Made by a program: the position numbers. Of a stretch of 64,000 bases of DNA, positions 39,001-42,000 are shown in pieces (the stretch's first letter is position 1; the number at the start of each line of letters is the position of its first letter). Location: NCBI GenBank assembly GCA_965287045.1, contig OZ336881.1, positions 1,302,001-1,366,000 on the forward strand, written 5' to 3'. Source of the stretch: Carcharhinus amblyrhynchos (Eukaryota).

Positions 39001-42000
39001 CTCACTTCCCATACATTTCAGCCCTTGAATTGAATTCACCAGAAGCCATGTTCCATCCAAGGTACACAGACATGGTTATCACCAAAGAAGCGCAAATTTC
39101 ACTGGGCCAACGTACTCCTGATGACACGGAATCCCCAGAGACTCCTGTCCATGTATCCTTTAAATATAATGGTGAGCTGCAGCAACACTAAAACAGCTAC
39201 AATCTATTACCTCTCCTGTCCTCAACTCTCTGCTCTTTCCAACTATATAACACGATCTCTACTTACCTGTGACTTTCCAAGAATAATGAGCCAGGTATCT
39301 TTGCAACCTTAAGCAACAGCCTATTTTTGGGGTGTCAGATACTCACTCTGAGGCAGTGTGCACACTAAATTAGCATTTCAGTGAGATTAGTTCCATGAAA
39401 TTAATCAAATCGAAAACATGATTACAGTATATCCATTGTATTAGGTGTTCATCATATAATGAATCCCAAAATAGGCATCAAAGACCACAATGTTCCAACC
39501 AGTTGGTACTGAAGTTATAATGATGGATTAACTGGTGTAGAAATTCATTGGAACTTGCTGTGGGAGGAGTGAATCTTTTCATTACATTCCGTAAGGTGCA
39601 GCCAACTAAGCTCAGTATAAGTCATATATTAAACCAAGGAGGGACCATATTATGTGATTGGAGAACATTTGGAGAGGGGTGTGGATTTCCTGGGCTATCC
39701 CAGAAAACGTAAATGGATGTGACTTTCAGCAGGACCAGCTTTGCAGATGCTTTGAAAACGAATGTCTTTTCATTCTTCTTCTCAATCTATTCATTCAGCA
39801 TCTGAAAAGAACTGCCCGTGGCTAGACTGCTATGTGTGTGTGTGTGTGTGTGTGCATATGCAGGCGTGTATGGGCACGTGTGTGCATGTGTATGTGTGCA
39901 CGCCTTGGGTTTTCAAAATGTTGGAAGCCTAGAAAATAATAACCACCTGGCCCCAAACTTACCTCTGTACTGTTTCCCCCAAGAGGAATCATCTTCACTT
40001 GGGCCCTGTAACACACAGTCCCACACGTACACAACCCCACACCCGCACACATCCACACGCACACACCCACACGCACTAACATGCACACACTCCCATACCC
40101 ACACATGCATGCGCACATCCACATGCACACATGTGCCCACATGCACACACGTGCCCATACACGCCCGCATATGCACACACATACACACACATGCACCCAT
40201 GTGCACACACACACAAAGCAGTCTAGCCACGGGCAGTTCTTTTCAGATGCTGAATGAATAGATTGAGAAGAAGAATGAAAAGACATTCGTTTTCAAAGCA
40301 TCTGCAAAGCTGGTCCTGCTGAAAGTCACATCCATTTACGTTTTCTGGGATAGCCCAGGAAATCCACACCCCTCTCCAAATGTTCTCCAATCACATAATA
40401 TGGTCCCTCCTTGGTTTAATATATGACTTATACTGAGCTTAGTTGGCTGCACCTTACGGAATGTAATGAAAAGATTCCCTCTTCCCACAGCAAGTTCCAA
40501 TGAATTTCTACACCAGTTAATCCATCATTATAACTTCAGTACCAACTGGTTGGAACATTGTGGTCTTTGATGCCTATTTTGGGATTCATTATATGATGAA
40601 CACCTAATACAATGGATATACTGTAATCATGTTTTCAATTTGATTAATTTCATGGAACTAATCTCACTGAAATGCTAATTTAGCGTGCACAGTGCCTCAG
40701 AGTGAGTATCTGACACCCCAAAAATAGGCTGTTGCTTAAGGTTGCAAAGATATCTGGCTCATTATTCTTGGAAAGTCACAGGTAAGTAGAGATACATGGA
40801 TAGATAACTTTTTGAAGTGTCCCTCATTTGTGTCCTCTACTCACCCCTTCCCCAAAACACTTTGTGATGCCAATGAATCAAACTTCTTACACTACCTGCA
40901 GAGTATTCCATATTATTGGAAAATGTACTGTGACATTGTAATTACATTTAGGATTGTACATTTTATTAAAATTCAATTTGAATAAGAAAATTGAATAAGG
41001 AGATAGATTGAGAGATTTCCCCATTTCACACACAGTATTCAATAAAGAAAACTTTGACAATGATTAATTACCATACCAGAAAAATTGCACCGGAGTAAAA
41101 TCATAAGTATTAAACTGTGTTAAAATTAAAGATAGAGAGGAAAAAGTGGCAAAGACCCATTACTTGTACTTTCAAACTATTAATTAAAAGGTTCAAATCT
41201 CTGTCCTAGTTGCAAAACCTCTCTGCACCAATGCAAATGTATCTTTTCAAGGCTGGCAAAGAGGATGCTCCAAATAGTGTAAACAGAACACTGTCTGGAT
41301 GTTGTTTGAACTCAGACACTGCATGCAGATTCATTTCCAAAAGTTAAATATTTTATAGACATTTCATGTTGCTTCCCTTCCAGTATCTCCATCCTCTTCA
41401 CTGTAAGCCTTCTGCTAATATCCTGTTTTGCTTGAGGTTGGTTACAGAGCTGAACCTCTCTTTTACACATTTTCTAATTTAGCTCCTTTCATTTGGACAA
41501 GTTGCTAAACTTGAATATTTTTTTCAGGCATAAATATTTTTACATTTTTTGCTAGGAATTCTTTTGGAATTGTGGAAATAAATACATGAACAGGTAAATG
41601 GTGTTGAAGAGGTTTCAGTTACTTTATTGAATTTTTAATTAACCAAATTAATTTCTAATATTTTGGTCATAAACATATCTGATCATTGTGTAAGCTCACT
41701 TGATGATTTTGATGTGATGACCCCAGTGCAATTGGCTCAAAAGGCAATGAAAGATCGAAGGCTGGCATTTTCAATGTCTGCCACCTAATCTCATAAATAA
41801 AACATATTTCATAAAACTCCTAATTACATTTGAGGAAAATAACACATACAGTGCAGCCTACTGGAGACTCTCAGTATTGGGTTCTACAAGTTAGAAGAGC
41901 GGCACTCCACTGTTTGTGGTAAGTTTGATCCAACTGGCCGAGAATTATTTTCCGTGGTTGAGTTCTGGAGTTTGTGATCAAAACTGGGAAGAATGTCAAC

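What the first reader, a model, noticed from the sequence alone, without database searches (positions are those of the whole stretch)
39255..40793. 1.54-kb near-perfect palindrome inside an EHBP1 intron
Seen: two 577-bp arms, ungapped, 6 mismatches by hand count. The inner ends run into TG-rich (left) and CA-rich (right) tracts that extend imperfect pairing around a ~110-bp unique core. The arms match no other repeat in the window, have no ORF, and show no clear TSD. Inference: transcription through EHBP1 would give a ~580-bp dsRNA hairpin (ADAR substrate, possible endo-siRNA source) and the DNA could extrude a cruciform. Origin could be a foldback-type element, a recent inverted duplication seeded by the TG/CA tracts, or arm-to-arm conversion. 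Scattered substitutions argue against a simple read chimera but not against haplotype mis-assembly.
Basis: partly seen in the sequence, partly recalled or inferred. Interest (0 to 1): 0.75.

Follow-up and report, generated by a model that had tools for sequence, protein, structure and literature searches.

The report
Intronic 1.5-kb palindrome with spacer
A short stretch of one EHBP1 intron is present twice, head to head, around a small unique centre; it looks like a real but ordinary DNA-repair scar whose main effect would be a long double-stranded hairpin in the unspliced RNA.

Summary
Arms 39255-39831 and 40217-40793 are 577 nt, ungapped, with 6 mismatches. With one 20-nt indel they extend through TG/CA-rich sequence to 39890 and 40138. 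That leaves a 247-nt spacer with a 106-nt unique core.

The palindrome lies in the 18,040-nt penultimate intron of a + strand EHBP1 gene, upstream of an Otx1-type gene.

Neither the arm nor the core has another copy in the 64-kb window. No protein family, Rfam family or tRNA matched. No 8-10-nt target duplication flanks it, only a 4-of-5 pentamer.

The arms differ by substitutions only, and 2 of 6 fall on CpG sites. Both flanks are unique, and no N run or adapter is nearby. This argues against an assembly artefact.

Best reading (0.45): one fold-back or template-switch inverted duplication primed in the TG/CA tract, with no selected function. The sense RNA folds at -1252 kcal/mol (z = -83). 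Cruciform extrusion is unlikely across a 247-nt spacer.

A foldback-type transposon (0.28) cannot be excluded, because no eukaryotic genome collection was available. Interest is low to moderate.

The parts
39255..39831 (.). Left arm, unique-sequence part (577 nt)
   Evidence: Pairs ungapped with 40793-40217; 6 mismatches, no indel. No other copy in the window.
39832..39890 (.). Left arm, TG-rich inner extension (59 nt)
   Evidence: Aligns to the reverse complement of 40138-40216 with one 20-nt indel and 3 mismatches. Holds a (TG)11 run at 39833-39854.
39891..40137 (.). Spacer (247 nt): about 10 nt TG-like, the 106-nt unique core 39901-40006, and a 131-nt CA-rich tract 40007-40137
   Evidence: The core has no other copy in the window. 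The CA tract 40040-40106 is 70% complementary to 39832-39898 over 67 nt (pair I3).
40138..40216 (.). Right arm, CA-rich inner extension (79 nt)
   Evidence: Reverse complement of the left TG-rich extension plus 20 extra nt. Pair I2 is 54 nt at 96%.
40217..40793 (.). Right arm, unique-sequence part (577 nt)
40779..40787 (+). Consensus 5' splice-site nonamer CAGGTAAGT, 6 nt from the outer end of the right arm; its mirror copy is at 39261-39269 on the - strand
   Evidence: These are the only 2 matches in the window on both strands; 0.61 expected. In the hairpin the + strand copy lies inside the 101-bp outer helix.
39250..39254 (.). Left flanking pentamer ACACG, half of a candidate target duplication
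   Evidence: Matches 40794-40798 (ACATG) at 4 of 5; the difference is CpG to TpG. Empirical P = 0.018 at the exact boundary. Any k>=5 with <=1 mismatch within +-3 nt occurs at 43% of random sites.
40794..40798 (.). Right flanking pentamer ACATG
29384..47423 (+). Host intron (18,040 nt, GT..AG, phase 1), the penultimate intron of EHBP1
   Evidence: Donor read at 29384 and acceptor ending at 47423. Flanking exon frames match bMERB and PDB EHBP1.

Best explanation
This is a genuine germline inverted duplication: a palindrome with a single-copy spacer in the penultimate intron of EHBP1. I infer one repair or replication accident. A 3' end lying in an imperfect CA/TG-rich tract folded back, or switched template, onto the complementary TG/CA-rich sequence about 100-250 nt away. 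It then copied roughly 640 nt of neighbouring intron in reverse and was rejoined to the chromosome. It has no selected function. Its main molecular consequence is that each EHBP1 pre-mRNA carries a ~580-640-bp near-perfect intramolecular duplex. That duplex should be a substrate for nuclear dsRNA-binding and editing enzymes and is discarded with the intron. What is shown: the structure, the intron location, the fold energy, and the substitution pattern typical of germline divergence. What is inferred: the fold-back mechanism, neutrality, and the fate of the RNA.
For: 1. The anatomy is that of fold-back inverted duplications: two inverted copies around a non-duplicated spacer, with inverted homology where spacer and copy meet. 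In passages of PMC3907307, all 21 sequenced junctions had a spacer of 766-70,466 bp, and 13 had 2-8 bp of inverted microhomology. Here the spacer/arm boundary lies in TG/CA sequence, and the spacer's own CA tract is complementary to the left TG tract (67 nt at 70%).
2. This explains the asymmetry without extra events. About 70 nt is TG-rich on the left and about 210 nt is CA-rich on the right, because the right tract is the spacer CA tract (131 nt) plus the copied tract (79 nt).
3. Such CA-rich tracts are native to this locus: there is an 835-nt array at 45108-45942.
4. No transposon hallmarks were found. There is no second copy of the arm or core in 64 kb. No direct repeat of k>=6 with <=1 mismatch lies within +-3 nt of the ends. 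No Pfam, Rfam or tRNA match was found.
5. GC content and CpG depletion of the arms (0.39; observed/expected 0.23) are like the flanks (0.41/0.29 and 0.38/0.21).
6. It looks real rather than artefactual. There are six substitutions (4 transitions, 2 transversions) and no indel in 577 nt. Two of the six fall on the 12 CpG positions (P=0.006). Both flanks are unique, the exons on either side are in order and orientation, the nearest N run is about 23 kb away, and no adapter was found.
7. The fold is MFE -1251.7 kcal/mol, z = -83.
Against: The flanking pentamers agree at 4 of 5, and the one difference is a CpG transition. A young insertion with a 5-nt target duplication would look like this, and fold-back priming does not predict it. 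The arms end 6 nt beyond a perfect splice-donor nonamer, which this model leaves as coincidence. The architecture of unique outer arm, repetitive inner arm and non-coding middle also resembles foldback transposons (passages of PMC4079207). Known fold-back duplications are mostly large and terminal. Templated inverted insertions at breaks are described as mostly ~5-34 bp in yeast (abstract start of PMC11724301, listing). A 640-nt interstitial example needs a second switch or joining step for which I have no junction evidence. Which arm is the original cannot be told. Genome-wide copy number and orthologous loci were not testable.
Confidence: 0.45

Rival explanations
1. It is a non-autonomous DNA transposon of foldback or long-terminal-inverted-repeat type, inserted as a unit into the intron and moved by a transposase encoded elsewhere.
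For: It has long terminal inverted repeats with a unique outer domain, a repetitive inner domain and a short non-coding middle. This is the layout described for foldback elements in passages of PMC4079207. The palindrome has sharp ends. The flanking pentamers match 4 of 5, differing by a CpG transition. No coding capacity is present, as in non-autonomous elements.
Against: No second copy or fragment occurs in 64 kb. No 8-10-nt target duplication of the kind reported for foldback elements is present. There is no TA or TTAA at the ends. The inner repeats are simple TG/CA sequence of a kind found elsewhere in the locus, not element-specific subrepeats. The asymmetry of the centre needs an extra event. 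From recall, no call: the terminal bases match no superfamily terminus that I know.
Confidence: 0.28
2. It is an assembly artefact: a foldback or chimeric long read, or a piece of the other haplotype placed in reverse.
For: Foldback reads exist in long-read data, and their non-mapping centres are enriched in AC dinucleotide repeats (passages of PMC12870357). The centre here is CA-rich. No read data were available to me.
Against: A foldback read mirrors everything up to its end. Here the complementarity stops after about 640 nt, and both flanks are unique and collinear with the gene. The arms differ by substitutions with a CpG bias and have no indel in 577 nt. No adapter was found. No N run lies within about 23 kb. 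If the arms were alleles at a diversity of 0.002 (the figure for one shark species, PMC10587355), 1.15 differences would be expected, and P(>=6) = 0.0012. The species of the window is unverified, so this last figure is only indicative.
Confidence: 0.08
3. It is a selected functional element. For example, it could be a hairpin-RNA locus giving small RNAs, a regulated dsRNA structure in EHBP1 pre-mRNA, or an inverted pair of regulatory modules within the Otx-Ehbp1 regulatory block, kept alike by arm-to-arm gene conversion.
For: All 6 mismatches lie in the outer 316 nt, and the inner 261 nt are identical (P=0.027 if placed at random). This could reflect conversion spreading from the centre. Ehbp1 introns carry Otx enhancers in zebrafish (passages of PMC3514665). 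At a shark-like mutation rate, 1% divergence would mean millions of generations of persistence.
Against: There is no match to any RNA family. The best is mir-297 at 33.7 bits against a threshold of 90, on simple TG sequence. No conservation data were available. The mismatch clustering is marginal and was noticed after the fact. A neutral scar explains everything seen.
Confidence: 0.05

Closest known systems
Fold-back inverted duplications with a single-copy spacer (human germline cases, PMC3907307; yeast break-induced cases, PMC10622511)
   Same: Both have two inverted copies around a non-duplicated spacer, and inverted homology at the spacer/copy boundary. In yeast, natural short inverted repeats near a break act as the primer site (abstract).
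   Different: Those cases are kilobase-to-megabase, usually terminal, and pass through a dicentric chromosome. Their spacers are 766 bp or more. This one is about 640 nt per arm, interstitial, has a 247-nt spacer, and must have been closed by a second joining step.
Foldback transposons (FB, Galileo, Tetris; PMC4079207)
   Same: Both have very long inverted termini, repetitive sequence in the inner part of the arms, a short non-coding middle domain, and no ORF.
   Different: No 8-10-nt target duplication is present. The inner repeats are simple TG/CA sequence. No second copy was seen, though only 64 kb could be searched. The passages I read name insects, plants, a sea urchin and nematodes as hosts.
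Intronic inverted-repeat dsRNA such as inverted SINE pairs and editing-enriched hairpins (PMC8313407, PMC4408787; abstract starts in the listing only)
   Same: In both, an intramolecular duplex is formed by two inverted copies in one intron of an expressed gene.
   Different: Here the arms are not dispersed repeats but a single local duplicate. From recall, the duplex is longer and far closer to perfect than typical inverted SINE pairs (perfect runs up to 261 bp).
Large sex-chromosome palindromes kept alike by gene conversion (PMC6790999, PMC3403216; abstract starts in the listings only)
   Same: Both have arms about 99% alike around a unique spacer, with possible arm-to-arm conversion.
   Different: Those are tens of kb to Mb and carry genes. 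This one is 1.5 kb, non-coding and intronic.

Membership tests
Fold-back / template-switch inverted duplication | Two copies of one segment in inverted orientation | tested here: met
   577 nt with 6 mismatches; 636/656 nt with one indel.
Fold-back / template-switch inverted duplication | Non-duplicated spacer between the copies | tested here: met
   Spacer 39891-40137. Its 106-nt core is single-copy in the window.
Fold-back / template-switch inverted duplication | Inverted (micro)homology at the spacer/copy boundary | tested here: inconclusive
   The boundary lies in TG/CA-rich sequence, with 67 nt at 70% complementarity between the spacer CA tract and the left TG tract. Low-complexity sequence gives such matches easily, so the exact priming site cannot be fixed.
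Fold-back / template-switch inverted duplication | Ancestral state with a single arm at the same locus | not testable with these tools
   No eukaryotic genome collection was available. Genome contigs holds only bacteria and archaea and was not used.
Foldback-type DNA transposon | Long terminal inverted repeats around a short non-coding middle domain | tested here: met
Foldback-type DNA transposon | Target-site duplication (8-10 nt in Tetris) | tested here: not met
   No k>=6 direct repeat with <=1 mismatch within +-3 nt of either end; only a 4-of-5 pentamer.
Foldback-type DNA transposon | Several dispersed copies in the genome | not testable with these tools
   0 further copies in the 64-kb window. 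The genome itself could not be searched.
Foldback-type DNA transposon | Element-specific tandem subrepeats inside the arms | tested here: inconclusive
   Only imperfect TG/CA repeats of period 2-30 occur at the inner ends. Similar sequence occurs elsewhere in the window.
Foldback-read or chimeric assembly artefact | Mirror symmetry running on to a contig end or gap, or an adapter or junk-only centre | tested here: not met
   Both flanks are unique. A 106-nt complex core sits at the centre. 0 adapter matches at <=3 mismatches. The nearest N run ends at 16276.
Foldback-read or chimeric assembly artefact | No single molecule spans the structure | not testable with these tools
   No reads were available.
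Known RNA families (Rfam 15), including miRNA precursors | Score at or above the family's gathering threshold | tested here: not met
   6 matches at E<=1 in 37000-43000, all far below threshold. The best was mir-297 at 33.7 against 90. 0 tRNA-like genes.
Long edited dsRNA hairpins (ADAR substrates) | Long intramolecular duplex within one transcript | tested here: met
   Both arms lie in one intron on the sense strand. MFE z = -83. This is a prediction only.
Long edited dsRNA hairpins (ADAR substrates) | Clustered A-to-G differences between RNA and DNA | not testable with these tools
   No RNA data were available.

The most novel reading that the evidence does not exclude
The palindrome is old rather than recent. 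In a genome with a shark-like mutation rate, 1% arm divergence corresponds to several million generations, and to more if arm-to-arm conversion is resetting the inner 261 nt. On this reading it is a long-lived, conversion-maintained hairpin locus inside the deeply conserved Otx-Ehbp1 block. It would be retained because its dsRNA (small-RNA source or editing-dependent signal) or its duplicated sequence does something.
Probability: 0.05. Interest if true: 0.6.

Novelty: new member of a known kind. Interest (0 to 1): 0.25.

Why it matters
If real, it is a clean natural example of a small interstitial inverted duplication whose inner junction sits in a TG/CA tract. That makes it useful as a case for fold-back or template-switch repair in a vertebrate germline. 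It also places an unusually long, near-perfect dsRNA in the pre-mRNA of a broadly conserved gene, so it is a convenient single-locus probe for RNA editing or dsRNA handling in that species. It does not open a new question. Palindromes with spacers, intronic hairpin dsRNA and foldback elements are all well described. One search for EHBP1 together with 'inverted repeat', 'palindrome' or 'shark' listed 10 of 2,055 papers, and none of those 10 contained EHBP1. So I found no description of this locus, but that is weak evidence of absence.

Tried and rejected
- Other copies in the window: blastn (word 9) and nhmmer found none for the arm or the core.
- Using a repeated flank to define an empty site: the flanks 35000-39254 and 40794-45000 have no repeat abutting the palindrome. 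The LINE 3' ends and reverse-transcriptase frames of the window do not reach it either; the nearest tblastn match is at 35476-35678.
- Known RNA families: nothing near threshold.
- tRNA-derived SINE head: 0 genes.
- Protein remnants: 0 of 7 frames in and beside the arms hit Pfam at E<=1.
- Vector, plasmid or phage contamination: no match for 39255-40010 in either collection in distant mode.
- Sequencing adapter: 0 matches.
- U1-like or exon origin of the arm end: the donor nonamer is real, but Rfam gave no snRNA match. The 54-nt AG-to-donor segment being open in phase is not significant (my reading; P about 0.4).
- Not attempted: complex prediction, structure prediction and the protein-collection searches, because the feature is non-coding.
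Copy number and orthology therefore stayed unchecked.
- Supplements are closed. The junction sequences of PMC3907307 (Figure S1, Table S1) were not seen, so my comparison of junction homology rests on its main-text passages only.

Full report
**Observation.** The repeat finder gives arms 39255-39889 / 40159-40793, 635 nt at 96%. A direct comparison shows that the first 577 nt (39255-39831 against 40793-40217) differ at exactly six positions, with no indel. Those positions are 39295, 39356, 39364, 39411, 39566 and 39570. Outside the arms pairing stops at once: 0 of the 6 nearest flanking positions are complementary.

Inward, the ungapped register breaks down in TG-rich (left) and CA-rich (right) sequence. 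An alignment with one 20-nt indel carries the arms on to 39890 / 40138 with three more mismatches. Gapped blastn gives 94.9% over 670 columns. What remains is a 247-nt spacer (39891-40137). It has about 10 nt of TG-like sequence, a 106-nt complex core (39901-40006) and 131 nt of CA-rich sequence. In the whole window only two other inverted repeats of at least 60 nt with arms within 5 kb exist, with 114- and 68-nt arms at 82%.

**Context.** Stop-to-stop frames on the + strand carry pieces of the bMERB domain in profile order:
- 23580-23792: profile positions 31-62, E=4.7e-9.
- 29245-29391: positions 63-88, E=0.012, below Pfam's cut-off on its own.
- 47384-47539: positions 86-125, E=3.2e-11.

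The last of these matches PDB chains 6zsj_C and 6zsi_C, named 'EH domain-binding protein 1', at E=4e-21 and 1e-20. Reading the splice sites gives:
- an exon 29310-29383 followed by GTAAGC;
- an acceptor ending at 47423;
- an exon 47424-47538;
- a final coding exon 48074-48164.

The palindrome therefore sits in an 18,040-nt, phase-1, penultimate intron. It is 9.9 kb from the donor and 6.6 kb from the acceptor, on the sense strand.

Downstream, a frame at 57668-58462 matches TF_Otx (E=3e-26). Otx-Ehbp1 linkage is described as conserved from placozoans to humans (passages of PMC3514665), which supports the EHBP1 assignment.

The exon frames were searched one by one; I made no joined spliced model. 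Nothing made me take the contig for human. The four N runs (6993-7252, 10608-10755, 15746-15893, 16122-16276) were left as they are. The nearest ends about 23 kb from the palindrome.

**What the arms are not.**
- The arm and the core have no other copy in the window, by blastn with word size 9 and by nhmmer at E<=10.
- Only the TG/CA tract resembles other sequence, chiefly an 835-nt imperfect AC array at 45108-45942.
- The flanks are not part of any repeat that would define an empty site.
- The longest frame within unique arm sequence is 62 aa, and 0 of 7 frames in or beside the arms hit Pfam at E<=1.
- Rfam gave six matches at E<=1, all far below threshold. The best was mir-297 at 33.7 bits against 90, on simple TG sequence.
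- ARAGORN found no tRNA-like gene.
- Plasmid and phage collections gave no match.

**Real or artefact.**
- The six differences are 4 transitions and 2 transversions. Two of them fall on the 12 positions that are CpG in either arm (P=0.006). That is the signature of germline decay of methylated DNA, not of read error.
- There is no indel in 577 nt.
- Foldback reads mirror themselves to the read end (passages of PMC12870357). Here both flanks are unique and the gene is collinear across the structure.
- That paper notes AC-repeat enrichment in the unmapped centres of artefact reads, which I weighed. But the centre here contains a complex 106-nt core, and similar CA arrays occur elsewhere in the window.
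- No adapter was found.
- If the arms were two alleles at a diversity of 0.002 (the value reported for one shark species, PMC10587355), 1.15 differences would be expected and P(>=6)=0.0012. This is indicative only, because the species is unknown.

I put the artefact at about 8%. Only reads can settle it.

**Origin.** The structure fits fold-back or template-switch inverted duplication. In human germline cases every sequenced junction had a single-copy spacer, and most had short inverted homology at the spacer/copy boundary (passages of PMC3907307). In yeast a break near natural inverted repeats primes such events (abstract of PMC10622511).

Here the boundary lies in TG/CA sequence, and the spacer's CA tract can pair with the left TG tract (67 nt at 70%). 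The model also explains why the right side has about 210 nt of CA-rich sequence and the left only about 70 nt of TG-rich sequence. The right tract is the pre-existing spacer tract plus the copied tract. By symmetry the argument works with either arm as the original.

Three observations count against it:
- The flanking pentamers ACACG / ACATG agree at 4 of 5 and differ by a CpG transition. The empirical P is 0.018 at the exact boundary, though 43% of random sites show some k>=5 near-repeat within 3 nt. This is what a young insertion with a 5-nt target duplication would look like.
- The arms end 6 nt beyond the only CAGGTAAGT nonamers in the window, which I cannot explain.
- The layout also resembles foldback transposons (passages of PMC4079207). 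However, their 8-10-nt duplications are absent, and copy number could not be tested.

My estimates are local duplication 0.45, transposon 0.28, artefact 0.08 and a selected element 0.05. The remainder is for origins not considered.

**Consequences.** As RNA the 1,539 nt fold at -1251.7 kcal/mol, against -396.7 +/- 10.3 for 20 dinucleotide shuffles (z = -83). Of 695 pairs, 584 are in palindromic register, and there are perfect helices of 101, 46, 158 and 261 bp. Both arms are in one intron, so the duplex can form on every sense pre-mRNA. Editing and small-RNA production are plausible from general knowledge of dsRNA-binding enzymes but are untested here. The + strand donor nonamer would be buried in the outer helix.

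Cruciform extrusion from duplex DNA is unlikely with a 247-nt spacer. Hairpin formation in long single-stranded DNA remains possible (abstract start of PMC10164571, listing).

**Age.** Divergence is 1.04% (Jukes-Cantor 1.05%). At 7e-10 per site per generation (95% CI 1.4-14.1e-10; PMC10587355) this is about 7.5 million generations, range 3.7-37 million, if no conversion has acted. So 'near-perfect' need not mean recent, if the genome is as slow as that shark's.

All six mismatches lie in the outer 316 nt (P=0.027). That is a marginal hint of conversion near the centre, noticed after the fact.

**Verdict.** This is a confirmed, well-defined intronic palindrome with a spacer. It is most likely a neutral repair scar and a new instance of a known kind. 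Interest is low to moderate. The decisive data are spanning reads, genome-wide copy number, orthologous loci and RNA data, all of which were out of reach here.

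Noticed in passing
window 34938-35215 (flanks 34893-34903 and 35218-35228): A second, older hairpin-type inverted repeat lies in the same intron: 114-nt arms, 82% complementary, 50-nt loop. It sits within a LINE reverse-transcriptase-like frame. It is bracketed by an imperfect ~25-nt direct repeat that includes an exact 11-mer.
   Followed up: partly
window 40779-40787 (+) and 39261-39269 (-); also 39957-39964 (-): The only two CAGGTAAGT nonamers in the window sit 6 nt inside the outer ends of the arms. 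A further AGGTAAGT lies on the - strand in the unique core. The 54 nt from an AG at 40726-40727 to the + strand donor are open in the EHBP1 phase, but this is not significant and the pyrimidine tract is poor.
   Followed up: partly
window 45108-45942: An 835-nt imperfect AC-rich array, the same kind of sequence as the CA tract of the palindrome.
   Followed up: no
window 47542-47899: A minisatellite of period about 36 nt begins 4 nt after the end of the penultimate EHBP1 exon (47538), directly behind its donor. An AT-rich minisatellite lies at 46558-46834.
   Followed up: no
window 56466-56699 and 57668-58462 (+): An Otx1-type gene lies about 8.3 kb downstream of the EHBP1 stop codon (48162-48164). 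It has a homeodomain-bearing frame and a TF_Otx C-terminal frame with a histidine-rich run. The pair is the conserved Otx-Ehbp1 block of PMC3514665.
   Followed up: partly
window 4114-4301, 9239-9404, 21778-21954, 42438-42718, 44094-44393, 62096-62192: A dispersed SINE-like repeat family occurs in both orientations, 70-84% alike. Several copies of a LINE 3' end family also occur, e.g. 104-301, 1698-2128, 3396-3853, 8097-8725 and 61233-61727.
   Followed up: no
window 6993-7252, 10608-10755, 15746-15893, 16122-16276: Four N runs of 148-260 nt lie in the upstream part of the gene.
   Followed up: no
window 24119-24186 / 24956-25023: A third inverted repeat: 68-nt arms, 82% complementary, 769 nt apart, just downstream of the bMERB exon frame at 23.7 kb.
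   Followed up: no
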